From a virus, in IMG/VR virus record IMGVR_UViG_3300032030_000058, positions 9,733 to 73,732 of that record: a stretch of DNA of 64,000 nucleotides, one strand, 5' to 3'. The translations under genes were made by a program, and so were the position numbers. Below the pieces are notes generated by a model. That model ran no database searches. It saw only the letters and a list, made by a program, of their open reading frames with translations, and was not told the DNA's origin. Positions 5,406 through 40,457 of the stretch are shown piece by piece. Position 1 is the stretch's first letter. Every line of letters starts with the position of its first letter.

Positions 5406-5409
5406 AATA

Positions 5410-6987: not shown

Positions 6988-7014
6988 TTTAACCCTCCTT
7001 TGGTAATCAATTAT

Positions 7015-7042
7015 ATATTATAGGAAAAATTAAAATGTGTCA
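7015..7042 (-). promoter_or_regulatory. minus-strand promoter (TTGACA-16-TAATAT) for the ADP-ribosylglycohydrolase gene
   Basis: TGTCAA at 7037-7042 on the plus strand = -35 on the minus strand; -10 at 7020-7015. Confidence 0.5.
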
Positions 7043-7050
7043 AGCACTTT

Positions 7051-7227
7051 TTACATTTTTTCATATTTTGGGCATGGTTTACTTTCGTAGTAAACTTCTT
7101 TTGGTTTTAGATCGAATTTTGAACAATAAGTCGCCAAAAAATTAACTAATCCATATTTACATGTCAAACATGGAATAGTTGATTTATCTGGTAATTGAAT
7201 TGTTAATTCTTCATTTTCATCAATCAT
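7051..7227 (-). CDS. small Cys-rich (zinc-ribbon-like) protein
   Basis: Start at ATG 7225-7227 preceded by AAGGAG; CxxC...CxxxC-like spacing (CLTC...CSK...CPKY). Confidence 0.45.
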   Translation of the reverse strand: MIDENEELTIQLPDKSTIPCLTCKYGLVNFLATYCSKFDLKPKEVYYESKPCPKYEKM

Positions 7228-9112: not shown

Positions 9113-9171
9113 ACTTTTTTCTCCTTCTGCATATATATTATTCTATTTATGCAAATGTGTCAATAGGTTTT

Positions 9172-12291: not shown

Positions 12292-13602
12292 CTATGCTGC
12301 TGGAGTGGTGAATGCTGCAGTTGAGATAACTGTAACTTTACCATTGTGAGCACCGAAGAGTTTGTAACCAGTTGAAGCAGTTAAGATACCGCTTAAATCT
12401 TGGTATGGAAGCACTTCGATTGCAGCTCCTGGAACACTGTCACCAACTGCTGGAATGCTTGCAGAAGCAATAGCGTAAAGTTTTGTGACTAATAATCCAG
12501 GTCTTAATGGACTAATCCATGTTCCAGTGATCATGTTCATGCTTGCGTCATAGGAGAAGTTGAGTGTTGGTTCAACAGCTGCGACGTCAGAAACGTGAGC
12601 ATAAACACCAATTCTCTTATTATCTAAGACGAATAAATCGTGATAGATACGAACGTTCACTTTGTAACCATCGAAATCTTGGACAACGCCAGGACCGAAT
12701 GTCTTAACGTGTTCATATTTAACGACGTGAGCAACTTTGGATGGATCGCAGACGATAAAGTCGATTTGTTTATTGCCTGTATCCCATGTGTAACCACCGT
12801 TACCAGAGTTGAGTAATTTAATCATAGTTCTGAAACGTGAATTTGGAACAGTGATTAATTTTCTACCTTCGTATTCTTCGATTTTGAAACTAATGTTACC
12901 TTTGAATTCAGAAGCATCGATAGTTCTGATTAATTCATTAGTATTTCTTAATTTGTTTCTGAAAGATGTAGAACAGAAGATAACTTGTCTTTCTGCTGGA
13001 ACTTCAGCGTTATCTAAAGTTTCGAAAGCAAGATTTAAGTGATAAATAGGACCATTTAATGTGTATCCTAATTGACCAGCAACTGGATCAGCGATTGCTG
13101 TGCTGTTAACTGTGCCAGCGTATTCTGCTAATTTTGAGAACACATAAGCATCAACTTCAGGAACAACGTTAACTCTGTTGGTTTCTTTTAAAGCCATAGC
13201 GACTGCTAAACCATCAGTTTCTTCATCGTCCATTAATTCGATTCTTAATTGAATAGCACGATCAACTCTGAGTGTGAACTCTTCCCACACAACAGCGATA
13301 TCGCCTTCTGGATAACCGTAACCTTCGCCTGCTGCATAAGGTGTAGCGGAACCGGCTGCGTAATCACCAGAAACTGGGACATTAGCACGGCCATAGTCTT
13401 TTAAACCAGCACCCATGAATTTTGCGACTTTAACGGTCTTTGTGCCTGTGAATTTTAAGAAGTCTTTTTCACCATCTAAGATAGAGGAACGAGCTTCTGC
13501 TACATATACTTCATCCCAGGCTTTTGTAGCGTATTTTTGAATAAGAGCAATAGCATTACCTGCCATAATATTTTTTCCTTCCTCCGATTTAACGGAACTC
13601 AT
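12292..13602 (-). CDS. major capsid protein (HK97-fold, phi29-like with C-terminal Ig-like domain)
   Basis: 436 aa; sits directly downstream of two acidic scaffold-like genes, has its own strong terminator, and has a Thr/Ser/Val-rich C-terminal ~100 aa that looks like a BIG2/Ig-like extension. Confidence 0.6.
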   Translation of the reverse strand: MSSVKSEEGKNIMAGNAIALIQKYATKAWDEVYVAEARSSILDGEKDFLKFTGTKTVKVAKFMGAGLKDYGRANVPVSGDYAAGSATPYAAGEGYGYPEGDIAVVWEEFTLRVDRAIQLRIELMDDEETDGLAVAMALKETNRVNVVPEVDAYVFSKLAEYAGTVNSTAIADPVAGQLGYTLNGPIYHLNLAFETLDNAEVPAERQVIFCSTSFRNKLRNTNELIRTIDASEFKGNISFKIEEYEGRKLITVPNSRFRTMIKLLNSGNGGYTWDTGNKQIDFIVCDPSKVAHVVKYEHVKTFGPGVVQDFDGYKVNVRIYHDLFVLDNKRIGVYAHVSDVAAVEPTLNFSYDASMNMITGTWISPLRPGLLVTKLYAIASASIPAVGDSVPGAAIEVLPYQDLSGILTASTGYKLFGAHNGKVTVISTAAFTTPAA

Positions 13603-13660
13603 TATGGAAATATGCTATGTTTCTTTTTTGTGGCTTATCAAGTTTAACTTATAATATATA

Positions 13661-14059
13661 TTATAACTTAAACAGTTTTTTTGCTTCTTCCCATTCTTCT
13701 TCGTCGTCGTCACCGTTTTCGGATTCTCCTTCCTCAGTGACTTCTTCTTCATCAGAATCGGATTTAGCATCTTCAAGTTTGTTTTCGAATTCTTCTTTAG
13801 ATTCGCCAGGACCAATTTCTTTAGCGGCTTCAGCTTCTTCAGCGGTTACGCCTTCAGCACCAGCACCTTCTGGACCTGCATCTTTTTCGAAGTCTTCGTC
13901 AAGTTCTAACCCGATAGCGCTGCATAATGTGCCTAAATCTTCTTTAGACATTTTACCTTCACGGAAGAGAGGCCATAAAATACCATCTGCGATATCTTCT
14001 GGGGTTAAACCTGCATCTTGAAGTTTTTGCATCATTTCTTGGATTTCTTCATTATTCAT
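13661..14059 (-). CDS. acidic scaffold-like protein
   Basis: 132 aa, highly acidic, C-terminus EEWEEAKKLFKL. Confidence 0.5.
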   Translation of the reverse strand: MNNEEIQEMMQKLQDAGLTPEDIADGILWPLFREGKMSKEDLGTLCSAIGLELDEDFEKDAGPEGAGAEGVTAEEAEAAKEIGPGESKEEFENKLEDAKSDSDEEEVTEEGESENGDDDEEEWEEAKKLFKL

Positions 14060-14077
14060 GTGTGATTTACTCCTTAA

Positions 14078-14839
14078 TTAATGAAACTTCAACTTAAATA
14101 ATTTTTCTGCTTCCTCTTCTTCACTCATTTGAGGCGCAGGTTTTTGCTCATTACCGAGCGCTTTAATACGTGTCACAGGAGCTGGGGCTGGGGCTGGGGA
14201 AGCAGCTTCCGCTTCTTTCTCAGCATTAGCTTCGCCTTTCCATTCAGGATGGGTTTCTAATTCGGAGTTAATATTATCTAATGTAACTTCAAGGCCTTTT
14301 CCTTTAAGAATTAATTTGACATCCTCGTAACGATCCGCATCAACACCGGATTGCATAAGAGCGATAGTTTCCGACATATCAGTAAGTTTTTTGTCTGTGT
14401 CTGATTTTTCTTGTTCCCAAGACGCTTTATCAGCATCATACATTTCTTTCTGTGTGTCGTATCTTTGTGCATTAGCAACTAAAGCATCAAGTTCTTCTTC
14501 ATTTTTGACACCATAACGGCCATAAATGTAGTTAAACGTTTTCTCTCTAGTTTTAACACGAGTATCACCAACTAACTTATCCACATCATCCTGAGTGAAA
14601 GTTTTAATGGATGTGTCGATAGCACCGTTTTCCTCGACTAATTCTGTTTCTGCTGGTTGGGACACACCATTAGCTGCATCTTCTTCAGTATAAACAGCGC
14701 CAGCTTCGGCTTCATTTTCCTCTGCGGAAGTGGCAGCAGGATCGGATGTTTCAGTCATTTCTGGTGATTTGGAAACAACTTCTTCATCTGTTTTTTCTTC
14801 TTCGCCTTCCAAAATTGGTTTTTTTTCTAAATCTTCCAT
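14078..14839 (-). CDS. scaffolding protein (acidic, coiled)
   Basis: 253 aa, Glu-rich, C-terminus EEEEAEKLFKLKFH, immediately upstream of the capsid gene. Confidence 0.55.
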   Translation of the reverse strand: MEDLEKKPILEGEEEKTDEEVVSKSPEMTETSDPAATSAEENEAEAGAVYTEEDAANGVSQPAETELVEENGAIDTSIKTFTQDDVDKLVGDTRVKTREKTFNYIYGRYGVKNEEELDALVANAQRYDTQKEMYDADKASWEQEKSDTDKKLTDMSETIALMQSGVDADRYEDVKLILKGKGLEVTLDNINSELETHPEWKGEANAEKEAEAASPAPAPAPVTRIKALGNEQKPAPQMSEEEEAEKLFKLKFH

Positions 14840-15077
14840 GTTTAACCTCCTGGAACGAGTAATTAACGTAAAAATAATTTACTAGAATTATATTAGCATG
14901 TATTTTTCGTGTGTGTAAATAAAAAATGATAAGGTTTTGTGCGTGGGCGTGAAGAATAACAATATGCTGGAAAAAAATGTTGACTTGGGTGGGCCGAAAA
15001 ATTTGTGGAGGCATTTAGAAAAAACCCAATCGGCAAAAACCCCCTCAACACCCCTCCCCCTACCTGATGTCCTCAAA

Positions 15078-15104
15078 CAAAAAATGACTAGCGTCCTAGT
15101 CATA
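15078..15104 (-). terminator. rho-independent terminator (minus-strand direction) in the late-operon upstream region
   Basis: Perfect 8 bp stem ATGACTAG-cgtc-CTAGTCAT followed by a T-run on the minus strand. Confidence 0.5.
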
Positions 15105-15283
15105 GTTCGAGAGGTTGCAGCCTCTTAGTTATAAAGGAGGATGTTCATTATATGTCCGAAATGAAAACCTACAGCTTTAGTATACAGCATCGATTCGTTA
15201 CCGTGCAAGAAAATTCCATCACCAGACAAGTTGGATTGCCCATAGAGCTTTTGAAAAAAATCGCACTATACTAAAAATAATTG

Positions 15284-15312
15284 TTGACAACATATATTAA
15301 TGGATATATAAT
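15284..15312 (+). promoter_or_regulatory. early sigma-A-type promoter P1 (TTGACA-17-TATAAT)
   Basis: -35 15284-15289, -10 15307-15312, AT-rich UP element aaaataattg. Confidence 0.7.
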
Positions 15313-15343
15313 TTAGGTAGTTAAAAACAAAGGAGCAAAAAAT

Positions 15344-15727
15344 ATGACACTAAATGAACTCTTAAAAAAACTTAGCACCATTAAAAAATATCGCTGGTTC
15401 CATGTGGTTTACACTAGCACTATCAATGGTTACAAAAAAACCACTACAAGCATTGTTAGGTTTGCTGACTATAAAAAGGCTGATGGCACCATGAACGAGC
15501 CTAAAAAGACCAATGTAAGCGAGTATATCATGCATTGTGAAAATACCGGCAATACCAATTTACAAGTATTCGTTACCAAATGCAAAAACCATAAGCCACA
15601 TAGTGTTTATGAGTATATGGGCAAAGAGATTAGTAAAGAGGAATATTATGAGGGTTCTCACAAAAAGCCATCTTCACCATCTCAATGTTTCTATCTCACC
15701 ATTGACAACATTGTAGCAATTTACTAA
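15344..15727 (+). CDS. early hypothetical protein
   Basis: Promoter 15284-15312, AAGGAG RBS, 127 aa. Confidence 0.6.
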   Translation: MTLNELLKKLSTIKKYRWFHVVYTSTINGYKKTTTSIVRFADYKKADGTMNEPKKTNVSEYIMHCENTGNTNLQVFVTKCKNHKPHSVYEYMGKEISKEEYYEGSHKKPSSPSQCFYLTIDNIVAIY

Positions 15728-15740
15728 GGGGGTTATAAAA

Positions 15741-15914
15741 ATGTTCAAAGTTGGAGATACCATTAAAATTATCTACATGGAAGGAGAGCCACAATATAGT
15801 GGCAAAATAGGCACCATTACTCACATTGACGATATTGGTCAATTACATGGGACTTGGGGTGGTTGTGCACTAATTCCAAATGTGGACGAGTTCCAAAAAA
15901 TTGAGAGCCGATAA
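15741..15914 (+). CDS. small early protein (57 aa)
   Basis: AAGGGGG RBS 6 nt upstream of ATG; followed by terminator 15904-15930. Confidence 0.5.
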   Translation: MFKVGDTIKIIYMEGEPQYSGKIGTITHIDDIGQLHGTWGGCALIPNVDEFQKIESR

Positions 15915-15930
15915 CATCGGTTCTTTTTTT
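15904..15930 (+). terminator. intrinsic terminator
   Basis: CCGAT-aac-ATCGG hairpin plus T8. Confidence 0.6.
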
Positions 15931-15978
15931 TAGCATCAATCGACCGTGCAAGAAGGAGATGGCGGCGGATGTCGATGG

Positions 15979-15996
15979 TTCCTAAAATCTTAGGAA
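15979..15996. promoter_or_regulatory. palindromic operator TTCCTAAAATCTTAGGAA upstream of P2
   Basis: Near-perfect 18 bp inverted repeat ~20 bp upstream of the -35. Confidence 0.5.
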
Positions 15997-16016
15997 AAAT
16001 TTTCTATAAATAATTG

Positions 16017-16045
16017 TTGACAATATATATACAATAATATATAAT
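16017..16045 (+). promoter_or_regulatory. early promoter P2 (TTGACA-17-TATAAT)
   Basis: -35 16017-16022, -10 16040-16045. Confidence 0.7.
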
Positions 16046-16072
16046 GGTAGTGTAGATAAGGAGATAAAAACT

Positions 16073-16198
16073 ATGTTCGCTAAAACCTATGTAATTATGC
16101 CATTGGAGTGGGATTATGATAATGACCACCATAATATGATAAGATACCTATCTAATCAAGGTATCATTGTTCCTAGTGATATTGTTCGCTTGGATTAA
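16073..16198 (+). CDS. small early ORF (42 aa), possibly the 5' part of a frameshifted gene
   Basis: Promoter 16017-16045, AAGGAG RBS; a further 41-codon ORF follows in the +1 frame (16213-16338) without an RBS before the terminator. Confidence 0.35.
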   Translation: MFAKTYVIMPLEWDYDNDHHNMIRYLSNQGIIVPSDIVRLD

Positions 16199-16212
16199 TT
16201 GTGTGGCTCTAT

Positions 16213-16338
16213 GGAGTGTTCAAAGGGCTATGCGGTTGGCACCATTACAAAACTTAAAAAGGAATATCCATATGTCAAGTTTGGACTATTCGAGGGAGCA
16301 ACTTGGGGTTCACTGACCATTGTTCAAGAGTTCTAATT
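16213..16338 (+). pseudogene. possible downstream fragment of a frameshifted early gene
   Basis: ORF MECSKGYAVG... in a different frame from 16073-16198, no SD, same transcription unit. Confidence 0.25.
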
Positions 16339-16339
16339 G

Positions 16340-16367
16340 AAGTATCCTGATGCGGGATACTTTTTTT
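16340..16367 (+). terminator. intrinsic terminator
   Basis: GTATCC-tgatgc-GGGATAC plus T7. Confidence 0.65.
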
Positions 16368-16452
16368 ATGCGATGCTGGACCGTGCTAAAAAATCCGATG
16401 GCGGATCCAGGATGAAGCTCACCATCAATGTTTGTTAACTTATAATTTTGTG

Positions 16453-16481
16453 TTGACAATATATATAAAATGATATATACT
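16453..16481 (+). promoter_or_regulatory. early promoter P3 (TTGACA-17-TATACT)
   Basis: -35 16453-16458, -10 16476-16481. Confidence 0.65.
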
Positions 16482-16505
16482 ATAATTAGAAAGAAGGAAC
16501 AAATC

Positions 16506-16931
16506 ATGAGTGAAAAACAAAAGCAAGAAGCCATTAAAAGAATGAGACTTCTACAAATTATGAATAGCGTCATTACCGACTTTAAAAATAATGGTCGTAT
16601 TTATTATAGTGAAAGGCAGAATTCAATGTTTCCAGCCACACTGTATTGGTTAGACAATAAACCTGAATGGGTTGCAATGGTCAAGGACTTTGAAAAAAGA
16701 AATCATGCCCTTGTCTATCATGCTCAATTAACTCACACACAAGTGGGAGACTTGCTATCGTTATTATATGTTTCTAATGACGAGTCAAGCTGGGAAGAGG
16801 ACCGCGAATGGATAGTCAATGAAGATGGCTTGATGTATTCAATGGTCATTAATCTTGACGACGACACATTCAGCGACATGGGGACCATTCAAGTTCGACC
16901 AGCGATGGGAGGTGTAGTAAGAACGGCGTAA
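16506..16931 (+). CDS. early hypothetical protein
   Basis: Start at ATG 16506 preceded by GAAGGAAC RBS; promoter 16453-16481. Confidence 0.6.
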   Translation: MSEKQKQEAIKRMRLLQIMNSVITDFKNNGRIYYSERQNSMFPATLYWLDNKPEWVAMVKDFEKRNHALVYHAQLTHTQVGDLLSLLYVSNDESSWEEDREWIVNEDGLMYSMVINLDDDTFSDMGTIQVRPAMGGVVRTA

Positions 16932-17042
16932 CAGCCGCTCTTTTTTTTAGCTTCAATTACCGTGCTAATACAGTGGATCCAGATTCAGATGCGGATCGTC
17001 TTCTGGCGTTCGAATCTTTTTAAAAAAATTTAATTTTAGGTA

Positions 17043-17071
17043 TTGACAATATATATAAAATAATATATACT
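17043..17071 (+). promoter_or_regulatory. early promoter P4 (drives ncRNA candidate)
   Basis: -35 17043-17048, -10 TATACT 17066-17071; 27/29 identical to P3. Confidence 0.65.
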
Positions 17072-17077
17072 ATATAT

Positions 17078-17289
17078 GTAAGATGAATAAACAAGTGTTG
17101 GGAAGATGATGTTCTCTTACAGCGAATAACCAAAGACTGCTATAGTGTCATAATAGGCGTAAGGTGGACGAAACCCTGGTTGGTTGGGCCGACGACTCGT
17201 ATGGTGTTTGCTACGTCACAACGTTAAATAGAACGTAGAACATAACTTAATAGTTTGGGAGAAGGTGGTTCGAAACACCTTCTTTTTTT
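17078..17289 (+). ncRNA. candidate ~210 nt non-coding RNA (promoter to terminator with no ORF and no RBS)
   Basis: Canonical early promoter 17043-17071 followed by no SD or ORF longer than 8 codons, internal hairpins (GTAAGA/TCTTAC, CTACGT/ACGTAG), intrinsic terminator 17259-17289. Confidence 0.45.
17259..17289 (+). terminator. intrinsic terminator ending the ncRNA candidate
   Basis: GAAGGTG-gttcgaaa-CACCTTC plus T7. Confidence 0.65.
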
Positions 17290-17393
17290 GCACCTGATAA
17301 CGCAACTGGATCTAAATCGCCGCATCAGATGAACCGTGCTAAACAGCATCATCTGGAATTCGGATGGAGCTGGGAAATTCTTCAAAAATAATG

Positions 17394-17422
17394 CTTGACG
17401 ATATATATACAATAATATATAA
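17394..17422 (+). promoter_or_regulatory. early promoter P5 (TTGACG-17-TATAAT)
   Basis: -35 17394-17399, -10 17417-17422. Confidence 0.65.
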
Positions 17423-17451
17423 TATAAGTAGTTAATAGGAGGAATACTAAT

Positions 17452-17868
17452 ATGACCATTAGACAAACATTATCAAACTACGTTATAAGTGAAATGACCA
17501 ACGAGGAACTATTCACTGAACTATCAAATTCTTTACCATTCAAGAGCAAAAGAGAGCATACTAAATGGTTATCGTTAAAGGGCACACAACAATGGTTGAC
17601 CATGACCGAAAAAGTTCTTAAACGAGCCAATACGCAAGTTTACCATGTCAAATTGGAACGTGGTTCACGTATTGAAATCAATGGTACAGGTTTCTATTCA
17701 TTTGAGGACTATTACACAAGTATCAAACTTGAACCAAATGAGAGCCATCGTTACATCAAGGAACAAACCATTGACCATATTCGTCAACAAATTGCTACTA
17801 GTATCCTTAAAAATGTCAAGAGATGGAAAGATATTGGTATTGATATGGCTGACCTAAGAGTGTTGTAA
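17452..17868 (+). CDS. early hypothetical protein
   Basis: Promoter 17394-17422, AGGAGG RBS, 138 aa. Confidence 0.6.
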   Translation: MTIRQTLSNYVISEMTNEELFTELSNSLPFKSKREHTKWLSLKGTQQWLTMTEKVLKRANTQVYHVKLERGSRIEINGTGFYSFEDYYTSIKLEPNESHRYIKEQTIDHIRQQIATSILKNVKRWKDIGIDMADLRVL

Positions 17869-17883
17869 ATCAAACCATAAACA

Positions 17884-17920
17884 TAAAAAAGAGAAGGGTT
17901 ATTCGCCCTTCTTTTCTTTT
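17884..17920. terminator. bidirectional terminator
   Basis: AGAAGGG-ttattcg-CCCTTCT flanked by an A-run and a T-run; the same hairpin family recurs at 60397-60430. Confidence 0.6.
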
Positions 17921-18141
17921 TCCATCGCAGCTTTGGCCAGATCCTTGATGTATTGAGCCGTGCTGTATTTGGATCTCAGGAAGTCATAGATCATCATCTG
18001 TTCTGGATCATCTTTCTTAAACATGATGGTCATTGAACAGTAGTTACTCTTGTTATACTTCTTGATGTAATCTCTCTTCCTCTTGTAATATTCTTCTGTT
18101 GGCATAAATTCTCCTCCTTCTCCATCAGCATCTGGATCCAC
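17899..18141 (-). CDS. hypothetical protein (minus-strand gene inside the early cluster)
   Basis: Own minus-strand promoter 18161-18189 (TTGACC-17-TACAAT), GGAGGAG RBS, bidirectional terminator 17884-17920. Confidence 0.55.
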   Translation of the reverse strand: MDPDADGEGGEFMPTEEYYKRKRDYIKKYNKSNYCSMTIMFKKDDPEQMMIYDFLRSKYSTAQYIKDLAKAAMEKEKKGE

Positions 18142-18160
18142 TATCCGTGCTGTGTATATA

Positions 18161-18189
18161 ATTGTATATTAGGATTCCAGATTGGTCAA
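18161..18189 (-). promoter_or_regulatory. minus-strand promoter for 17899-18141 (TTGACC-17-TACAAT)
   Basis: -35 18189-18184, -10 18166-18161 read on the minus strand. Confidence 0.55.
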
Positions 18190-18196
18190 GAAAAAA

Positions 18197-18225
18197 TTTA
18201 CAAGTATATATAAAATGGTTATAAT
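18197..18225 (+). promoter_or_regulatory. promoter P6 (TTTACA-17-TATAAT), drives sRNA candidate
   Basis: -35 18197-18202, -10 18220-18225. Confidence 0.6.
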
Positions 18226-18231
18226 AATGAT

Positions 18232-18338
18232 GAAGGTGAATTAATTAAGCCCCCAATTAAATAACGCAATTCATTAAACTTTTTCATTTCAAACTAAAAA
18301 TCCATCACCTTCAGCAGTCCCTCGTGGACTGTTTTTTT
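18232..18338 (+). ncRNA. candidate ~105 nt small RNA
   Basis: Promoter TTTACA-17-TATAAT at 18197-18225, no ORF longer than 5 codons, closing helix GAAGGTGA/TCACCTTC, terminator 18313-18338. Confidence 0.4.
18313..18338 (+). terminator. intrinsic terminator
   Basis: CAGTCC-ctcgt-GGACTG plus T8. Confidence 0.65.
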
Positions 18339-18413
18339 TGATTCAGCTAACCGTGCTATACGGCGACGCCAGATGAATCAAAATTGAGCTGGAAAAAAAT
18401 TTAATTTACCCCC

Positions 18414-18442
18414 TTGCAAATATATATACTTTGATATATAAT
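18414..18442 (+). promoter_or_regulatory. early promoter P7 (TTGCAA-17-TATAAT)
   Basis: -35 18414-18419, -10 18437-18442. Confidence 0.65.
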
Positions 18443-18470
18443 ATAGATAGTTAAAAGGGAGATAAAAAAC

Positions 18471-18761
18471 ATGACAACTACTTCAAAACAAACTAAGGCT
18501 TGGAAAGAACTTTTCTCAGCCATATTCGAAGAAAATGGATACTTCGAAAACTTACGTCAATTCGCAAAGGACCATGGTTATAGCAATCAAGACATGACTG
18601 AAATGCTTTATGAAAGCTACATGCACAATTGCCCTGAAGGTATGGGACCTTATTATTTCATGGACAGTATGGAAGAGCATTACGAGGACATGAAAGACAG
18701 CGTGGAAAATATTTACGATATGGTGGACTGGCTATGGGACCATCAAGCGTGGAAGGAGTAA
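18471..18761 (+). CDS. early acidic hypothetical protein
   Basis: Promoter 18414-18442, AAGGGAG RBS. Confidence 0.6.
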   Translation: MTTTSKQTKAWKELFSAIFEENGYFENLRQFAKDHGYSNQDMTEMLYESYMHNCPEGMGPYYFMDSMEEHYEDMKDSVENIYDMVDWLWDHQAWKE

Positions 18762-18765
18762 AACA

Positions 18766-19059
18766 ATGGAAAACAAATACTATGAGCTTGGTTGGAGGCT
18801 TAATTCAACACAAAGGAAAGCCCTAAAAGACCTTGGCTACCATGTGTATGCAACTCGTTCTTGGGACGAAGGTTGTGGCTCTACATTGGAACATCGTGTC
18901 CTTGTTAACCACGAAACAGACGTCATTACAAACTTCCCAGCATTGGACGACAACAATCCTGAAGACATGGCTAACGACTTCTACGAGCGCATGGAAGAAT
19001 TCAATGCTACCAGCGACCTAGAAATCACCCCTGAAATGAGAACCATCTTGGAAATGTAA
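18766..19059 (+). CDS. early acidic hypothetical protein
   Basis: Coupled 4 nt after upstream gene, GGAGTAA RBS. Confidence 0.55.
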   Translation: MENKYYELGWRLNSTQRKALKDLGYHVYATRSWDEGCGSTLEHRVLVNHETDVITNFPALDDNNPEDMANDFYERMEEFNATSDLEITPEMRTILEM

Positions 19060-19065
19060 AGGAGG

Positions 19066-19098
19066 GAGAGGCTGCCATCAGCAGCTTCTTTTTTTTAT
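19066..19098 (+). terminator. intrinsic terminator
   Basis: GCTGC-catca-GCAGC plus T9. Confidence 0.65.
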
Positions 19099-19248
19099 GC
19101 CTCCTTCACTGCACGGTTAGAAGCTGGATTCGCCTGAATTCTGGAGATTCATCTGGAAGCTCACCTGGGGATTCATCTGGGCGATTACCGTGCTCGATCG
19201 ATGTCCACAGAGCTTCTACCAGAATCCAAAAAATAATTAAAATAATGG

Positions 19249-19277
19249 TTGCAAGTATATATACATTAATATATAAT
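19249..19277 (+). promoter_or_regulatory. early promoter P8 (TTGCAA-17-TATAAT)
   Basis: -35 19249-19254, -10 19272-19277. Confidence 0.65.
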
Positions 19278-19306
19278 ATAGGTAGTTAATAGGAGGAACA
19301 TATCCC

Positions 19307-20038
19307 ATGGAAAAAACAACAAACATATTGCTTGGTCTAGCAATTAAACACAATGGTAATTGGAGTAGCATTTACCATGACTTACAACAAAAGGACTATG
19401 AAGGTGCAGAGGCACTCGCAGAGGCTTATACAGGCTCTTTTATCACTATCCTTGACGAAGAATATCCTGACTACTTAAAACAAGCCCACAAGCCACCATT
19501 TGTGCTATTTTATAATGGCGACATTTCTTTATTAAAAAAGGAACACACACGAGTATGCGTATCAACAAGTAGAGCAACTGACGAAGACTCACTTTCTTTC
19601 TTGCACTCTTTAATTAACAATGACTACAACGACATTGACTATGTTATAAGCGAAACCACACACAACATTGAAATAGACAGGAAGAAACACCACGCCATTT
19701 GCGTTGCAGGTTGTGGTCTTGAACTCGTCAATTGCACCAACTACGACTTAATAATCAGTGAATATCCTAGTGGCACACCAAAAGCCTCGGAAGGTATGCT
19801 TGGAGCATATCGTATTATGGCAGGTATTTCTTCAAAAATAATGGTCGGTAAAGTTAAAAGACTAAGCGGAACGAATGCCCTTATCTCCTTCGGTTTATAT
19901 CAAAACAAGGACATATTAGTTATGCCTGTTAAACCAAAGGAAAACATTGAGGAAGACCTTGGCAATAATAAACTTATCTACGACGGAGCAATACCACTAG
20001 TAGACAAGGAACAGTTAGCGTTCTATCTAGGTCATTAA
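19307..20038 (+). CDS. DprA/Smf-like (Rossmann/SLOG-type) protein, divergent
   Basis: HHAICVAGCGLEL...LIISEYPSGTP...GAYRIMAGISSKIMVGKVKRLSGTNALIS matches the DprA core (TIAVLGSGLD...LLISEYPPGTP...RNRIIAGLS...SGSLITA); the canonical SGLARGID motif is replaced by SETTHNIEID. Confidence 0.55.
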   Translation: MEKTTNILLGLAIKHNGNWSSIYHDLQQKDYEGAEALAEAYTGSFITILDEEYPDYLKQAHKPPFVLFYNGDISLLKKEHTRVCVSTSRATDEDSLSFLHSLINNDYNDIDYVISETTHNIEIDRKKHHAICVAGCGLELVNCTNYDLIISEYPSGTPKASEGMLGAYRIMAGISSKIMVGKVKRLSGTNALISFGLYQNKDILVMPVKPKENIEEDLGNNKLIYDGAIPLVDKEQLAFYLGH

Positions 20039-20042
20039 AAAA

Positions 20043-20070
20043 GTGTCGGAAATTTATCCGACATTTTTTT
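20043..20070 (+). terminator. intrinsic terminator
   Basis: GTCGGAAATTTATCCGAC plus T7. Confidence 0.65.
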
Positions 20071-20114
20071 CTGGGGCGGTCACCGTGCTATGCGGCAGAT
20101 GATCCGGATCCAGC

Positions 20115-20132
20115 TTCCTAAAATTTTAGGAA
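20115..20132. promoter_or_regulatory. palindromic operator TTCCTAAAATTTTAGGAA upstream of P9
   Basis: Perfect 18 bp palindrome 24 bp upstream of the -35. Confidence 0.5.
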
Positions 20133-20156
20133 ATTAAATTCACCTAAAAATAATTG

Positions 20157-20185
20157 TTGACATCAATTTGTATATAATGTAATAT
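20157..20185 (+). promoter_or_regulatory. early promoter P9 (TTGACA-17-TAATAT)
   Basis: -35 20157-20162, -10 20180-20185. Confidence 0.65.
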
Positions 20186-20212
20186 ATATAACGTAAACAG
20201 GAGGTATACCAA

Positions 20213-20431
20213 ATGAAAACAACCATCTCATTCTACAACTCAACTACTGCCTTATGGGTAAACTTTGACGACAAATTTATGGCTCTCAAAGACCAGCACT
20301 CAAAAGGTGAAATGAGTGAAGTTTACGATTTCGGTGTTGGCTTAATCGAAGTTAAGGCAACTGATGGTGAAATCGAAGCTACTCGTAAAGTGCTTGAAAC
20401 ACAAGGGTTCACATTCATTTATATCGAATAA
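20213..20431 (+). CDS. early hypothetical protein
   Basis: Promoter 20157-20185, AGGAGG RBS, 72 aa. Confidence 0.6.
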   Translation: MKTTISFYNSTTALWVNFDDKFMALKDQHSKGEMSEVYDFGVGLIEVKATDGEIEATRKVLETQGFTFIYIE

Positions 20432-20523
20432 GAAGGATGTCCATCAGGGCATTCTTTTTTTATGTCTCAATCACCGTGCTATATTGCCACGATCCGAACA
20501 TCTAAAAAACTATAAATAATTAT

Positions 20524-20552
20524 TGACTTCTATATATAAAAGGATATATATT
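20524..20552 (+). promoter_or_regulatory. early promoter P10 (TTGACT-17-TATATT)
   Basis: -35 20524-20529, -10 20547-20552; first of a tandem pair. Confidence 0.6.
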
Positions 20553-20624
20553 ATAGACAGGTAGTTGAAGAGAGCACCTCAAAAAATCAACTACAAAAAA
20601 AATTAAAAAAAATAAAAAAACCTA

Positions 20625-20653
20625 TTGACACATTTTAAAAAATAATGTAATAT
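20625..20653 (+). promoter_or_regulatory. early promoter P11 (TTGACA-17-TAATAT)
   Basis: -35 20625-20630, -10 20648-20653. Confidence 0.65.
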
Positions 20654-20741
20654 ATAGGTGTAAGGTAAAGAACGAGGAACGTTCACGAGGGCCTTACGAA
20701 CAAACTTAAAACGTGGAAGAACCACTATAGGAGAATTAAAA

Positions 20742-21023
20742 ATGTTTGTAAAAATTACTCGAATTAACAACCAAAATCACGAAAAAGAATTAGTAGTCAA
20801 CACTGACGAAATCGTCTTTCTAAGCGAATGCGAAGACCACATCAACTATGACAAGCCTATCGCATACGAAGAAACCACTGACGAAGACACAGGTATCATT
20901 ACCAAAGTCCCAAGTGAGTGGGAAATCGAAAAACGTTATGTTATCGGTTTCAAAAACGGAAAACACCCACAAATCGTAGACAAAACCAATTACGAAAAAT
21001 TAGCCGAAATCTTACTCAAATAA
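20742..21023 (+). CDS. early hypothetical protein
   Basis: Tandem promoters 20524-20552 and 20625-20653, ~80 nt structured leader, TAGGAGAA RBS. Confidence 0.6.
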   Translation: MFVKITRINNQNHEKELVVNTDEIVFLSECEDHINYDKPIAYEETTDEDTGIITKVPSEWEIEKRYVIGFKNGKHPQIVDKTNYEKLAEILLK

Positions 21024-21046
21024 GAAAGTAGGGTAAAATAGCCACT

Positions 21047-21082
21047 GGAAGAGAGCCCACCTCGAACTCTCTTCTTTTTTTG
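21047..21082 (+). terminator. intrinsic terminator
   Basis: GAAGAGAG-cccacctcgaa-CTCTCTTC plus T7. Confidence 0.65.
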
Positions 21083-21145
21083 TCTTCGCGACGGCGGATG
21101 GAAGGCGGATCAACGTGGGCATCCTATGGCACGGTCATATGATTC

Positions 21146-21163
21146 TTCCTAAATTTTTAGGAA
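21146..21163. promoter_or_regulatory. palindromic operator TTCCTAAATTTTTAGGAA upstream of P12
   Basis: Third copy of the same palindrome, 15 bp upstream of the -35. Confidence 0.5.
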
Positions 21164-21178
21164 ACTTGCAAATTTGTG

Positions 21179-21207
21179 TTGACAATATATATCAAATAAT
21201 ATACAAT
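21179..21207 (+). promoter_or_regulatory. early promoter P12 (TTGACA-17-TACAAT)
   Basis: -35 21179-21184, -10 21202-21207. Confidence 0.65.
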
Positions 21208-21231
21208 GGTAGCATAAGGAGGGCATATCCC

Positions 21232-21537
21232 ATGAAAAGCAAATACGTAGAGTATAGAGATTTCTATATTACATCATTCGTTGACTACGATAAGGAATTG
21301 TTCGTTATGGTCAACATCAGTGGCGACACACTAGTGGAAAACTTCACTAGCAACTTCTTCTCTAAAGAAGACTTAGTTATTGACTATTATAAGTTAATCT
21401 CCAAATGTGCCACAGGAGGGGACGAAGACGATATTATTCCATACACACGCAAGTATATGGCGCATATCGTGAGAGTTTCACAAGAGGAACTTAATATGGA
21501 CTATATTAATTTCTCTCTAAAGGGGGTCCAATTATGA
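21232..21537 (+). CDS. early hypothetical protein
   Basis: Start at ATG 21232 after TAAGGAGGG; promoter 21179-21207. Confidence 0.6.
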   Translation: MKSKYVEYRDFYITSFVDYDKELFVMVNISGDTLVENFTSNFFSKEDLVIDYYKLISKCATGGDEDDIIPYTRKYMAHIVRVSQEELNMDYINFSLKGVQL

Positions 21538-21755
21538 GACGCTACTACATAATTACCGACCTTGTCCACAGTCAAGACTATCTTACGTGGGCGTATGACC
21601 ATAGTGACATCCTTGGTGCAGCAATATGCTTTGCTGAAAAACAAGGCGTCACCATCAATGACCTGCGTATGTATGCCTGCTCCACCAAAAAAGAGTGGGA
21701 CGCATACGGAACAGCTCACTTCTCTCGTATCAAAGCGTGGCAATGCACCAAATAA
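21534..21755 (+). CDS. early hypothetical protein
   Basis: ATGA overlap with upstream gene; followed by two terminators. Confidence 0.55.
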   Translation: MRRYYIITDLVHSQDYLTWAYDHSDILGAAICFAEKQGVTINDLRMYACSTKKEWDAYGTAHFSRIKAWQCTK

Positions 21756-21989
21756 GGCATCAAACGGCTCGATTCAGCCGTTTTTTGTTGTTTTCCGAGT
21801 AATTCCTCGTTTTCATACACAAACACATCTTAAACGGCGGATTCGTAACATCCGCTTTTTTGATGCTTCAGGGACGTTCACCGTGCTAACCAGATGAATC
21901 GAGTTAGTACCAGAATCATCCCACATCTAAGATGTGAATTACTGTCCATCAAAAAATTAATTTTTTTTGCAAATTATTCATTTTTATAT

Positions 21990-22185
21990 TAACTATAAAA
22001 TAGAATAATTATGCAAAGGGACCATTTTGGTGAATCGAGTTAGCGTTTTGCTATTATTATCTTACATATATATATACATACACATATTGGGAATTATAGG
22101 AAAATTCTAACTCAACTAATCAAATTTAACATTAGTAGATAGACTACTAAAAAAATCAACGTTCTATAAATAATTATTGACTTGG
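21990..22185 (+). repeat. ~190 bp direct repeat, copy A
   Basis: ~80% identical over ~110 bp to 28250-28445 (tttggtgaatcgagttagcg...atatatatacatacacatat...) and shares the identical ctataaataattattgac promoter-like end. Confidence 0.6.
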
Positions 22186-22347
22186 CACTTTTTGGCGTTT
22201 TTTGAGCTTTTTGCTTTCCTTTCTTCTTCTAAGAATTCTTCTTCTTCTCCTTGCGATGCTTCTGGATCAGGACCTAGCACGGATAGCTTCATGTGCATGT
22301 CCAGGACCGGGTTAGCATCAGGGTGAAAATTTGTTACAAAAATATAT

Positions 22348-22375
22348 TGACAACCATTTTCAAATAATATATACT
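22348..22375 (+). promoter_or_regulatory. promoter P13 (TTGACA-16-TATACT), drives sRNA candidate
   Basis: -35 22348-22353, -10 22370-22375. Confidence 0.6.
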
Positions 22376-22381
22376 GTAGTT

Positions 22382-22487
22382 GCAATGATGGAGATATGTA
22401 TTCTCCTATAACTTAAAAACCCATAGTCATGTTAATTCCTTTCATTGCACTAATCTGTCAGTTTACATAGCCTGGCAGATTTTTTTA
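22382..22487 (+). ncRNA. candidate ~105 nt small RNA
   Basis: Promoter TTGACA-16-TATACT at 22348-22375, only 8- and 12-codon ORFs, internal hairpin GGAGA/TCTCC, terminator ATCTGTCAG/CTGGCAGAT plus T7 at 22453-22487. Confidence 0.4.
22453..22487 (+). terminator. intrinsic terminator ending the sRNA candidate
   Basis: ATCTGTCAG-tttacatagc-CTGGCAGAT plus T7. Confidence 0.6.
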
Positions 22488-22599
22488 TGCCCAGCTCAGG
22501 ATCTGGACAGGATCTGAATCCGATTTCGCATATTAGCACGGTAGGTTAATTATAGAATCGATGCCGCTTCAGAAAATGAAAAAATACTATAAAAATATA

Positions 22600-22628
22600 T
22601 TGACATATACATGTATATAATGTAATAT
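22600..22628 (+). promoter_or_regulatory. early promoter P14 (TTGACA-17-TAATAT)
   Basis: -35 22600-22605, -10 22623-22628. Confidence 0.65.
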
Positions 22629-22653
22629 ATAATTGTCAATAGGAGGTCACAAT

Positions 22654-23268
22654 ATGGCTATAAAAATCTCAACTACAAACTCAAAACTAGGGTTCATGAT
22701 TCCTAGTATATCACTACCACCGCAACACTCTTGTCGTCCTGACGCGCCTTGTGCGAAGGGTTGCTATGGTAAAAAGGGCAATTTCTTATTTAGTAACGTT
22801 CAACAGTCTCATATGGTCAACTTTGAAGAATATCAAAAAAATCCTAACGGGTACTTCAAACAAATTATTGAATACTTAAATTGCGGACTCATATCACATA
22901 AATTCTTTCGTTGGCATACTGTCGGCGACATCGTAGACTACAATTATTTTCTCGGAGTCGTTAGTGTGGCGCGTAAATGTAAAGACACTAAGTTCTTACT
23001 ATTCACGAAGAAGTTCGACATCATCAACGACTACGTGGGCGCCGGTAACACTATTCCTAGAAATTTATCAATTGTGTTTTCCGCGTGGCATAAGGGTTTT
23101 AAAGTCGACAATCCTTATGACTTCCCTGTCGCGTATGTGTTCTTTAAGAAGACAGAACTCAATCCTGACATCCCAGCTATGGCTATCCCTTGTTCTGGTC
23201 ACTGTCCATCTTGTTTAGCCTGTTGGAGTCTTAAAAAAGGTCAATCAGTGTTCTTCAATCAACACTAA
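22654..23268 (+). CDS. Cys-rich early protein (N-terminal CxxxxxCxxxC and C-terminal CSGHCPSCLAC clusters)
   Basis: Start at ATG 22654 after AGGAGG; promoter 22600-22628; 204 aa. Confidence 0.55.
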   Translation: MAIKISTTNSKLGFMIPSISLPPQHSCRPDAPCAKGCYGKKGNFLFSNVQQSHMVNFEEYQKNPNGYFKQIIEYLNCGLISHKFFRWHTVGDIVDYNYFLGVVSVARKCKDTKFLLFTKKFDIINDYVGAGNTIPRNLSIVFSAWHKGFKVDNPYDFPVAYVFFKKTELNPDIPAMAIPCSGHCPSCLACWSLKKGQSVFFNQH

Positions 23269-23328
23269 TTAAACCGCCGAAGTAGGGACGCGGTATATAA
23301 GACAGCCTTGGGATAGCGGACCAACGCT

Positions 23329-23359
23329 AGAAGGGAATCGATCCCTTCTTTTTTTTATG
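23329..23359 (+). terminator. intrinsic terminator
   Basis: GAAGGGA-atcga-TCCCTTC plus T8. Confidence 0.65.
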
Positions 23360-23496
23360 CGGATTTATCTAGCACGGTAATGGATCCACGGCGGCGATTC
23401 TCTGGATCCAGACAGCTTCAGATCAAGATGAATAACCGTGCCGGAAGCTGTACGATCAGAATCCATCCTGGATCAGAAAAAAACTGTAAATTTATA

Positions 23497-23526
23497 TTGA
23501 CATATATATATCCAATAATATACAAT
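23497..23526 (+). promoter_or_regulatory. early promoter P15 (TTGACA-18-TACAAT)
   Basis: -35 23497-23502, -10 23521-23526. Confidence 0.6.
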
Positions 23527-23552
23527 GAGAGTGTCAATAGGAGGATATACAA

Positions 23553-23924
23553 ATGACAAACTACAACACTTTAACACCTTACAAACATCATCAAATCGAA
23601 GACTGGGGCGGCGTTATCAGTGACGACTTCAAATCATTCGCTCGCAAGTGGCAAAACTTCTTAAAACGCATGTGTGCAAATAACGGTTGGGAGCTATGCA
23701 ACTTCAATCGCGGACACTACTACTGTTCCTGGTTCATCAAAAACGGTGACAAATACGTTTACTGCTCATTCGGAGACGTCAGGCACTTCTCCAGAGACTG
23801 GTATAAACTCATTCTCCATCGCGTCGCAAAAAATGAACGCGACTATACCGGTGGAAGTAACTGGTACACCGAACTCGAAAATCTCGAAGGAGCAATTACC
23901 AGACGGTTCCAGACTGGATATTAG
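23553..23924 (+). CDS. early hypothetical protein (Cys/Trp-rich)
   Basis: Promoter 23497-23526, AGGAGG RBS, bidirectional terminator 23934-23968. Confidence 0.6.
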   Translation: MTNYNTLTPYKHHQIEDWGGVISDDFKSFARKWQNFLKRMCANNGWELCNFNRGHYYCSWFIKNGDKYVYCSFGDVRHFSRDWYKLILHRVAKNERDYTGGSNWYTELENLEGAITRRFQTGY

Positions 23925-23933
23925 TTCAAAAAA

Positions 23934-23968
23934 TAGAAAAGAGCTGATCATCTCAGCCCTTTTTTATT
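23934..23968. terminator. bidirectional terminator between convergent genes
   Basis: GCTGA-tcatc-TCAGC with an A-run upstream and a T-run downstream. Confidence 0.55.
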
Positions 23969-24761: not shown

Positions 24762-24799
24762 GGTTTTATTATATAAAAAAGAGCTCCTAAATGGAACTC

Positions 24800-40455: not shown

Positions 40456-40457
40456 TT

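What the first reader, a model, noticed from the sequence alone, without database searches (positions are those of the whole stretch)
15979..21163. Conserved 18 bp palindrome TTCCTAAAATTTTAGGAA upstream of three early promoters
Three perfect or near-perfect copies (15979, 20115, 21146) lie 15-24 bp upstream of the -35 of P2, P9 and P12. This is a classic dimeric HTH operator geometry. A regulator, perhaps one of the two XRE proteins at 54660 or 55230 or a host factor, likely modulates this subset of early units.
Basis: seen in the sequence. Interest (0 to 1): 0.5.

Follow-up and report, generated by a model that had tools for sequence, protein, structure and literature searches.

The report
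Conserved palindrome upstream of three phage promoters
An 18-bp palindrome sits just upstream of three strong promoters in an uncultured 79-kb phage and is conserved in some related phages; this fits a binding site for a two-subunit regulatory protein, but nothing identifies that protein, so it is a real but fairly ordinary regulatory element.

Summary
TTCCT-N8-AGGAA occurs exactly three times (15979, 20115, 21146) in the window. It occurs nowhere else in the 79,025-bp circular genome I rebuilt around the window. Chance expectation is 0.04 to 0.2 copies. Each copy lies 20, 24 or 15 nt upstream of a near-consensus TTGACA-N17-TAxAAT promoter, at the distal edge of an A/T-rich UP-like tract.

The flanks of the three copies are unrelated. 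In diverged relatives the arms stay invariant while the centre varies. Homologous cassettes carry the same half-site variant (TTCCTGG) on opposite arms. That points to a symmetric dimer reading double-stranded DNA, not to an RNA hairpin or a duplication remnant.

- The sites lie at about -60 to -75, not over the core promoters.
- Their helical phase is not fixed.
- The promoters are already near consensus.
- Nothing links the sites to the two XRE proteins.
- The palindrome is patchy: 4 of about 11 sampled lineages have it.

I rate it a new member of a known kind, with modest interest. A more striking neighbour is a family-wide motif, wACCGTGCwA. All 30 copies are confined to 13.4-26.6 kb, with one in essentially every spacer of the small-gene module.

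The parts
15979..15996 (.). Palindrome copy 1, TTCCTAAAATCTTAGGAA. It lies 20 nt upstream of the -35 hexamer at 16017.
   Evidence: Homologous cassettes in L019 (9258) and L124 (6018) carry it as well.
20115..20132 (.). Palindrome copy 2, TTCCTAAAATTTTAGGAA (perfect). It lies 24 nt upstream of the -35 hexamer at 20157.
   Evidence: The orthologue in L014 at 1605 has one central change.
21146..21163 (.). Palindrome copy 3, TTCCTAAATTTTTAGGAA. It lies 15 nt upstream of the -35 hexamer at 21179.
   Evidence: The orthologue in L014 at 3154 is identical, although the spacer just 5' of it has diverged.
15997..16016 (+). A/T-rich UP-element-like tract between palindrome 1 and the -35 hexamer.
   Evidence: Read directly from the sequence. 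The function is inferred.
16017..16045 (+). Sigma-A/sigma-70-type promoter, TTGACA-17-TATAAT (12 of 12). It drives a split small gene at 16073-16198 and 16199-16336.
   Evidence: An intact 87-aa homologue of the split gene is in L112.
20133..20156 (+). A/T-rich tract between palindrome 2 and the -35 hexamer.
20157..20185 (+). Promoter TTGACA-17-TAATAT (10 of 12). It drives a 72-aa gene at 20213-20431.
   Evidence: The gene has no Pfam or PHROG match.
21164..21178 (+). Short A/T-rich tract between palindrome 3 and the -35 hexamer.
21179..21207 (+). Promoter TTGACA-17-TACAAT (11 of 12). It drives genes at 21232-21537 (101 aa) and 21534-21755 (73 aa).
   Evidence: Neither gene has a family match.
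15943..15949 (+). ACCGTGC spacer motif 29 nt upstream of palindrome 1. It belongs to the shared intergenic architecture, not to the palindrome.
20082..20088 (+). ACCGTGC spacer motif 26 nt upstream of palindrome 2.
21129..21135 (-). ACCGTGC spacer motif in inverted orientation (GCACGGT on the + strand), 10 nt upstream of palindrome 3. It is the only conserved island in a spacer that has otherwise diverged from L014.

Best explanation
The palindrome, consensus TTCCT(A/G)(A/G)-N4-(T/C)(T/C)AGGAA, is a recognition site on double-stranded DNA for a symmetric dimeric DNA-binding protein that has not been identified. The protein could be phage-encoded or host-encoded.

The site sits at the upstream edge of the A/T-rich UP-like tract of 3 of the roughly 15 sigma-A-type promoters in a module of small accessory genes (about 15.2-23.95 kb). 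Because it is centred near -60 to -75, the bound protein would not occlude RNA polymerase. Because the three core promoters are already near consensus, the protein more likely tunes or shuts down these units than switches them on. It could do this by touching or displacing the alpha C-terminal domains at the UP tract, as phi29 p4 does at its strong A2c promoter. It could also do it by bending or looping DNA.

Shown here: the site exists, is non-random, is under selection as a dyad, and is always promoter-associated. Inferred: that a protein binds it, the sign of regulation, and the mechanism.
For: 1. Non-random: 3 copies against 0.04-0.2 expected, and none elsewhere in the 79-kb genome.
2. An island of conservation: the palindromes are 89-94% identical to each other. 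Their 40-nt upstream flanks are 25-33% identical without gaps, and 0.60-0.62 with gaps, against 0.54 +/- 0.07 for control spacer pairs.
3. Purifying selection: in the close relative L014 the spacer 5' of copy 3 has diverged with indels. Identity becomes about 100% from 2 nt before the palindrome through the promoter.
4. Dyad signature: the 9 copies come from four lineages, namely the window, L014, L019 (also sampled as L015) and L124. In all of them TTCCT and AGGAA are invariant, and changes fall in the central 4 bp.
5. Same variant on either arm: homologous cassettes, which share ACCGTGCAAGAAGG upstream, carry TTCCTGGAATTTTAGGAA in L019 and TTCCTAAAATTCCAGGAA in L124. The same variant half-site TTCCTGG therefore arose on opposite arms. 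This is expected for two identical subunits reading two half-sites, and it is incompatible with a strand-specific RNA stem.
6. Constant context: the order is always terminator, ACCGTGC, G+C-rich spacer, palindrome, A/T tract, -35.
7. Precedent: phi29 p4 binds inverted repeats (CTTTTT-N15-AAAATG) upstream of sigma-A promoters and reads flanking and central A-tracts indirectly (PMC3100819).
Against: No binding protein is identified.

The distance to -35 varies (15, 20, 24 nt here; 20, 30, 30 and 31 nt in relatives). The site therefore falls on both faces of the helix, which is unusual for contact-dependent regulators.

Only 4 of about 11 sampled lineages have the element, so it is dispensable for the module.

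The genes behind palindrome-bearing promoters are not orthologous between lineages and have no known function.

No module-encoded protein shares the palindrome's distribution across lineages.

No host regulon was detected.
Confidence: 0.55

Rival explanations
1. One of the two phage XRE-family HTH proteins (54660-54863 or 55230-55481) is the dimer that binds the palindrome and regulates these three promoters.
For: Both are genuine HTH_3-type proteins (E 2.9e-13 and 4.8e-05). In the Pfam hits on record for the called genes of the 79-kb genome, the 67-aa one is the only protein flagged as a sequence-specific DNA binder. The half-site spacing of 11 bp suits an HTH dimer.
Against: There is no palindrome, half-site or other obvious operator at their own promoter region. 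Small XRE/Cro-type regulators usually autoregulate. They normally act from sites overlapping the core promoter, not from -60 to -75. Homologues could not be located in the related phage contigs, so co-occurrence with the palindrome is untested. Dozens of small ORFs with no family match are equally eligible.
Confidence: 0.1
2. A protein-independent architectural element. The A4T4-type centre bends DNA, or the palindrome extrudes as a small cruciform. Either would boost or insulate the adjacent strong promoter without a dedicated regulator.
For: The centre is always A/T-rich and often AAAATTTT-like. The element abuts the UP-like tract. From my own knowledge, upstream curved A-tract DNA enhances some Bacillus phage promoters (work on SP82 by McAllister and Achberger). 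An unrelated viral contig, L007, has the same 18-mer 16 nt upstream of a consensus promoter.
Against: What is conserved is the G/C-containing arms, while the A/T centre varies. That is the opposite of what curvature alone predicts. The hairpin is weak, about -4 kcal/mol as DNA. Twelve other strong promoters in the module do without it.
Confidence: 0.12
3. The palindrome is not a transcription signal. It is another cis-acting DNA site of the region-wide system marked by the ACCGTGC array, for example in replication initiation, packaging, DNA entry or end protection. It would be promoter-adjacent only because every spacer in the module holds a promoter.
For: It lies inside the 13.2-kb region that holds all 30 CCGTGC copies of the genome, and always 10-29 nt from one of them. 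Copies 2 and 3 flank the conserved 93-aa gene, its A-rich tract and its tandem promoters. An AT-rich non-coding stretch with an inverted repeat lies at 21.9-22.2 kb.
Against: The ACCGTGC array is present in all lineages but the palindrome in only some. So the array does not need the palindrome. The palindrome always keeps the same side and proximity to a promoter.
Confidence: 0.1
4. A recombination or cassette-boundary sequence: a short shared sequence at which promoter-gene cassettes are exchanged between co-infecting relatives.
For: There is a sharp switch from diverged to identical sequence 2 nt before copy 3 in the window-versus-L014 comparison. Gene content behind the palindrome differs between lineages. 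The phyletic distribution is patchy.
Against: Eighteen base pairs is short for homologous exchange. The ubiquitous promoter core and the ACCGTGC motif would serve better as junctions. Dyad-symmetric conservation and the same variant on either arm are not explained by this model.
Confidence: 0.06
5. An RNA hairpin in read-through or antisense transcripts, acting as a processing or stability signal.
For: It can form a 7-bp stem. In L019 the AA-to-GG change would give G-U wobbles on the + strand.
Against: In L124 the same variant is on the other arm, which would give A-C mismatches on the + strand. The stem is weak and AU-rich. The site lies between an intrinsic terminator and the next promoter. 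There is no Rfam match.
Confidence: 0.03

Closest known systems
Phage phi29 p4 binding sites (sites 1-4 between promoters A2c and A3 in a Bacillus phage)
   Same: These are inverted repeats bound by a dimer upstream of host sigma-A promoters in a Firmicute-type phage. The ends are conserved around an A/T-rich, indirectly read centre. One protein can repress strong promoters and activate a weak one from upstream positions (PMC3100819; the alpha-CTD mechanism is from my own knowledge of Mencia, Monsalve, Rojo and Salas, 1996-97).
   Different: The sequence and span differ: CTTTTT-N15-AAAATG over 27 bp, against TTCCT-N8-AGGAA over 18 bp. No p4-family Pfam hit is on record for the called genes of this genome. 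There is no evidence of a partner like p6. The promoters here are all strong.
Lambdoid and 434-type Cro/CI (XRE-family) operators
   Same: They are short dyads of 14-18 bp with conserved outer bases and a tolerated but affinity-tuning A/T-rich centre. They occur in multiple copies per phage. XRE-type proteins are encoded in this genome.
   Different: Those operators overlap the core promoters, are clustered next to the regulator gene, and are autoregulatory. Here the sites lie 15-31 nt upstream of -35, are spread over 5 kb, and are 33 kb away from the XRE genes.
Class I CRP-type activator sites
   Same: The site is a palindrome centred near -60 to -75, next to where the alpha-CTD docks.
   Different: Class I sites keep strict helical phasing (-61.5, -72.5 and so on) and serve weak promoters. 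Here the phase varies and the promoters score 10-12 of 12 against consensus.
Host-takeover or pre-early modules of SPO1 and T5 (the context, not the palindrome)
   Same: This is a block of many small genes, each with its own strong host-type promoter and terminator.
   Different: From my own knowledge, those modules lie in terminal repeats and have no reported TTCCT-N8-AGGAA element. Here the module sits between the head genes and the portal gene. Its timing and its relation to the genome ends are unknown.

Membership tests
Dimeric HTH (XRE/Cro/CI-type) operator | Inverted repeat whose half-sites are about one helical turn apart. | tested here: met
   The half-sites TTCCTAA and TTAGGAA are 11 bp apart centre to centre. 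The arms are invariant in 9 copies.
Dimeric HTH (XRE/Cro/CI-type) operator | The operator overlaps -35, -10 or the start site, so that binding occludes RNA polymerase. | tested here: not met
   The palindromes end 15-24 nt upstream of -35, and 20-31 nt upstream in relatives.
Dimeric HTH (XRE/Cro/CI-type) operator | A copy at the regulator's own promoter (autoregulation). | tested here: not met
   There is no copy or half-site near 54.6-55.6 kb. Only three copies exist in the whole 79-kb genome.
Dimeric HTH (XRE/Cro/CI-type) operator | The regulator gene and the site co-occur across related genomes. | tested here: inconclusive
   No XRE homologue was found in the related contigs. Those contigs are partial, so absence cannot be called.
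Dimeric HTH (XRE/Cro/CI-type) operator | Specific binding of the cognate protein to the site. | not testable with these tools
   This needs EMSA, footprinting or DAP-seq.
Upstream activator or p4-like site acting through the alpha-CTD | The site is centred upstream of -35, roughly -60 to -90, next to a UP element. | tested here: met
   The inferred centres are -59.5, -64.5 and -68.5 in the window, and -64.5 to -75.5 in relatives. An A/T-rich tract fills the gap to -35. Start sites are inferred, not mapped.
Upstream activator or p4-like site acting through the alpha-CTD | Fixed helical phase relative to the core promoter. | tested here: not met
   The gaps are 15, 20, 24, 20, 30, 30 and 31 nt, which fall on both faces of the helix.
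Upstream activator or p4-like site acting through the alpha-CTD | The target promoter is weak without the factor. This applies to activation only. | tested here: not met
   The promoters match 12, 11 and 10 of 12 consensus positions at optimal 17-nt spacing. This favours repression or tuning over activation.
Upstream activator or p4-like site acting through the alpha-CTD | A p4-family protein is encoded in the genome. | tested here: not met
   No such Pfam family appears in the precomputed hits for the called genes across the genome, nor among the small module proteins scanned.
Intrinsic terminator or structured RNA | A stable G+C-rich stem with a U-run, or covariation that preserves pairing. 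| tested here: not met
   The fold energy is about -4 kcal/mol. The L124 variant breaks pairing on the + strand. There is no Rfam hit.
Host global-regulator regulon site | The same motif recurs in intergenic regions of a bacterial genome. | tested here: inconclusive
   The exact 18-mer gives 71 single hits scattered across phyla, with no clade or promoter enrichment. The host is unknown and degenerate sites were not searched.

The most novel reading that the evidence does not exclude
The palindrome and the ubiquitous wACCGTGCwA motif could be two cis-acting parts of a previously undescribed system. That system would mark a 13-kb 'special' region of this phage family, made up of the small-gene module and the portal-proximal genes. 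One possibility is a set of loading or stop sites for a phage DNA-binding protein that controls stepwise DNA entry, end protection, or a region-wide transcriptional shut-off. The conserved antisense 66-aa gene at 17899-18099 is a candidate for that protein. In this reading the palindrome would be a lineage-specific add-on that recruits a second factor.
Probability: 0.1. Interest if true: 0.7.

Novelty: new member of a known kind. Interest (0 to 1): 0.3.

Why it matters
If a protein binds here, the element defines a small regulon of three transcription units inside the accessory-gene module of a widespread, uncultured 79-kb phage family. The family's conserved 93-aa module protein falls into 83 protein clusters in public metagenomes. 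The 18-mer is also a clean bait for fishing out the regulator. It would be one more case of phage control exerted from upstream of strong host-type promoters rather than by occlusion. On its own this is incremental. The broader intergenic architecture around it is the more unusual feature and deserves its own follow-up, especially the region-restricted ACCGTGC array.

Tried and rejected
- Known phage relatives. Megablast of the region against INPHARED found no match. Protein searches hit only distant Firmicute phages at about 28-34% identity.
- Host operator. The exact 18-mer in 185,579 genomes gave 71 scattered single hits, and only 5 had even a weak promoter nearby. I rejected this as evidence for a host regulon.
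- Widespread phage element. The exact 18-mer hit 11 IMG/VR contigs, about 7 independent ones, mostly inside genes. Only L007 and L011 show it next to a promoter, and they share no proteins with this phage. A generalised pattern (TTCCT-N8-AGGAA, then 12-34 nt, then a consensus promoter) gave 12 hits in about 6 families with non-palindromic centres, which is near chance.
- Literature. No paper holds the 18-, 16- or 14-mer.
- RNA element. There was no Rfam hit, the fold is weak, and pairing is broken in L124.
- Duplication remnant. The flanks are at background identity.
- Degenerate extra copies or half-sites at other promoters. None were found.
- Analogous upstream palindromes in palindrome-free relatives. 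None were found. The recurrent dyads there lie inside the core promoter.
- Phyletic profiling of module proteins against palindrome presence. No protein matched.
- XRE co-occurrence. No usable homologues were found.
- Autoregulation by the genes downstream of the palindromes. They have no Pfam or PHROG match.
- Structure of the conserved antisense 66-aa protein. Only a single-sequence model was allowed. It has pLDDT 70 and pTM 0.30, which is too weak for a fold search.

Full report
**Observation**

The 18-mer is present as described, at 15979 (one mismatch), 20115 (exact) and 21146 (one mismatch). No other match at up to three mismatches exists in the window. Shuffles give a mean of 0.21 matches, and none reaches three. 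With only the arms specified (TTCCT-N8-AGGAA), three copies are observed against 0.04 expected. No degenerate copy with an A/T-rich centre exists.

The window is 100% identical to pieces of an ENA metagenome contig, ERZ27257205 k141_7069919. That contig is 79,166 bp with a 141-bp end overlap. I rebuilt a 79,025-bp circular genome from it. The 15 kb outside the window adds no copy and no relevant half-site.

**Context**

The phage has no close relative in INPHARED. Its proteins resemble Firmicute phage proteins only distantly.

From about 15.2 to 23.95 kb lies a + strand module of small genes, between the head genes and the portal gene. Almost every gene has its own near-consensus TTGACA-N17-TATAAT promoter and its own intrinsic terminator.

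Every spacer in the module has the same order: terminator, then 13-17 nt, then wACCGTGCwA, then a G+C-rich stretch, then an A/T-rich UP-like tract, then -35. In three of about 15 spacers the palindrome is inserted between the G+C-rich stretch and the A/T tract. It lies 20, 24 and 15 nt from -35. If transcription starts 7 nt after the -10 hexamer, the dyad centres fall at about -64.5, -68.5 and -59.5. That start position is an inference.

**Is it selected?**

The three copies are 89-94% identical to each other. Their flanks are at background identity, so they are not remnants of a longer duplication.

The same module architecture occurs in many metagenomic relatives. The conserved 93-aa module protein has 83 clusters in the large protein database.

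- The close relative L014 keeps copies 2 and 3. For copy 3, the spacer just upstream has diverged with indels. Identity becomes essentially complete from 2 nt before the palindrome through the promoter.
- L019 (also sampled as L015) has three copies, and L124 has one.

Across the nine copies the arms TTCCT and AGGAA never change, and substitutions fall in the central four positions.

The most informative case is a set of homologous cassettes that share ACCGTGCAAGAAGG upstream:
- the window has TTCCTAAAATCTTAGGAA;
- L019 has TTCCTGGAATTTTAGGAA;
- L124 has TTCCTAAAATTCCAGGAA.

The same variant half-site, TTCCTGG, therefore appears on opposite arms. This is what two identical protein subunits reading two half-sites of duplex DNA would tolerate. 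It breaks any strand-specific RNA stem. The hairpin is in any case weak, about -4 kcal/mol, and nothing in Rfam matches.

**What it is not, or not demonstrably**

It is not a classic occluding operator, because it never overlaps the core promoter.

It is not phase-locked. The gaps of 15, 20 and 24 nt here, and 20, 30, 30 and 31 nt in relatives, put it on both faces of the helix.

The target promoters are 10-12 of 12 matches to consensus. Activation seems unnecessary, and tuning or shut-off is more plausible.

The nearest mechanistic precedent is phi29 p4. It is a dimer that binds inverted repeats with A-tract-dependent indirect readout, upstream of sigma-A promoters (PMC3100819). From my own knowledge, it represses a strong promoter and activates a weak one through alpha-CTD contact. 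No p4-like protein is evident here.

**Who binds?**

This is unresolved.

Their own promoter region has no copy or half-site. Co-occurrence could not be tested.
- The genes downstream of the palindromes have no family matches and are not orthologous between lineages.
- No module protein tracks the palindrome's patchy distribution.
- The palindrome is absent from L020, L112, L114, L116-L120, L121 and L123.
- The exact 18-mer in bacterial genomes looks like chance.
- One unrelated viral contig pair, L007 and L011, carries the identical 18-mer and a TTCC...GGAA variant, each 16 nt upstream of consensus promoters in repeated cassettes. This is either convergence or a hint that such dyads are generically useful upstream of strong promoters. 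A generalised scan did not show a widespread element.

**Verdict**

This is a real, selected, dyad-symmetric cis element, most likely a protein-binding site that modulates three promoters. The XRE assignment is unsupported. The element is a new member of a known kind and of modest interest.

**Side finding**

The hexamer CCGTGC, with extended consensus wACCGTGCwA, occurs 30 times in the 79-kb genome. All copies lie between 13,385 and 26,620. None lies in the other 65.8 kb, where about 7 would be expected under an independent-base estimate of my own.

It is in every module spacer and in the neighbouring head and portal-region genes. There it occurs in all three reading frames, and partly at positions conserved between relatives. 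The same confined array is present in every relative examined. In L112 two copies are fused into the perfect palindrome ACCGTGCACGGT.

In the window-versus-L014 comparison it is the only conserved island in an otherwise diverged spacer. In several lineages its orientation flips near the conserved 93-aa gene, but not in all of them.

A conserved antisense 66-aa gene inside the module (17899-18099, - strand) has a helix, extended segment, helix, helix pattern that would suit a ribbon-helix-helix protein. The evidence is inconclusive. This array is more unusual than the palindrome and is unexplained.

Noticed in passing
window 13385-26620 (for example 15943, 16380, 16959, 17333, 18350, 19187, 20082, 20473 on +; 21129, 22536, 23372, 23983, 24676, 26037, 26206 on -): The motif wACCGTGCwA occurs 30 times (as CCGTGC) in the 79-kb genome. 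All copies lie within this 13.2-kb region and none elsewhere. There is one in every module spacer, 13-17 nt after the terminator T-run, and others inside the neighbouring head and portal-region genes in all three reading frames. The same confined array is present in every relative examined. In L112 two copies are fused as ACCGTGCACGGT. The function is unknown; it could be a protein-binding array, a Chi-like or packaging signal, or a nick site.
   Followed up: partly
window 17899-18099 (- strand): This is the only antisense gene inside the + strand module. It encodes a 66-aa basic protein (MPTEEYYKRKRDYIKKYNK...), and homologues are present in the six lineages compared (A4). Its helix, extended segment, helix, helix pattern would fit a ribbon-helix-helix DNA binder. 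There is no Pfam or PDB sequence hit, and the single-sequence model is weak (pLDDT 70).
   Followed up: partly
whole window; ENA ERZ27257205 k141_7069919 (loci L104, L106, L107, L109); Logan SRR9006805 (loci L105, L108): The window is 64 kb of a 79,025-bp circularly assembled phage genome (79,166-bp contig with a 141-bp overlap). Identical sequence is present in a second sequencing run. The unseen 15 kb encodes three very large proteins (1243, 1507 and 1509 aa).
   Followed up: yes
window 17043-17290; 22347-22495; 20523-20625: These strong promoters are followed by no plausible ORF. One gives a transcript of about 210 nt ending at the terminator at 17260-17290. One gives about 110 nt ending near 22470-22495. 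A third gives a short hairpin plus a poly-A-rich tract just upstream of the promoter of the conserved 93-aa gene, and that tandem arrangement is conserved in L019 and L020. They are candidate small RNAs or an origin-like AT-rich element. There are no Rfam hits.
   Followed up: partly
window 21930-22180: An AT-rich non-coding stretch inside the module. It has a 17-nt inverted repeat (21972-21988 / 21994-22010) and an alternating purine-pyrimidine run. It could be an origin or a packaging site.
   Followed up: no
module spacers, for example 16403, 16975, 18134, 20106, 23382, 23404: Short motifs specific to each lineage recur in the G+C-rich spacers. The window has CTGGATC and GGATCC (6 of 7 GGATCC copies in the genome lie in the module). 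L019 and L114 have TCCTGGA instead (10 and 9 copies). In L019 this motif overlaps the variant arm of the palindrome.
   Followed up: partly
window 16073-16198 and 16199-16336: The gene behind palindrome 1 appears split into 41-aa and 45-aa ORFs (TAA followed directly by TTG). Relative L112 has an intact 87-aa homologue at 5313-5576. This could be a pseudogene or a recoding site.
   Followed up: partly
L007 10190-10208 and 10387-10404 (IMG/VR UViG 3300025151_005356); L011 732-749: An unrelated viral contig carries the identical 18-mer and a TTCCTAGAATTTCTGGGAA variant. Each is 16 nt upstream of TTGACA-N16-TATAAT in repeated small-gene promoter cassettes. No proteins are shared with this phage.
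   Followed up: partly
window 7012-7061, 9132-9181, 34978-35027, 43896-43945, 55501-55550, 60346-60395 (- strand): A second family of long, near-identical promoters (TTGACACATTT...TATAATATATAG) heads the - strand operons, including the XRE operon. Host-type promoters are therefore not confined to the 'early' module.
   Followed up: no
window 6184-6987 and 7220-8833 (- strand): An ADP-ribosyltransferase toxin-like gene (PF03496; PHROG Bxa-like) sits next to an ADP-ribosylglycohydrolase gene (PF03747). This may be a writer/eraser pair for host takeover.
   Followed up: no
window 28986-31196 (-) and 51624-51963 (-): A fused polynucleotide kinase / phosphatase / RNA ligase (736 aa) and three tRNA genes (Gln-TTG, Ser-TGA, Ser-GCT). 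Together they suggest a tRNA-repair countermeasure.
   Followed up: no
window 37000-43500 and 57400-59800 (- strand): Arrays of paralogous small genes share conserved 5' ends and overlapping stop/start junctions (repeat families D2, D3, D8, D11-D13).
   Followed up: no
window 19307-20038: A DprA-like gene (PF02481, DNA_processg_A) lies in the module. It is also present in L020, L119 and L123, which is unusual cargo for a lytic-looking phage.
   Followed up: no
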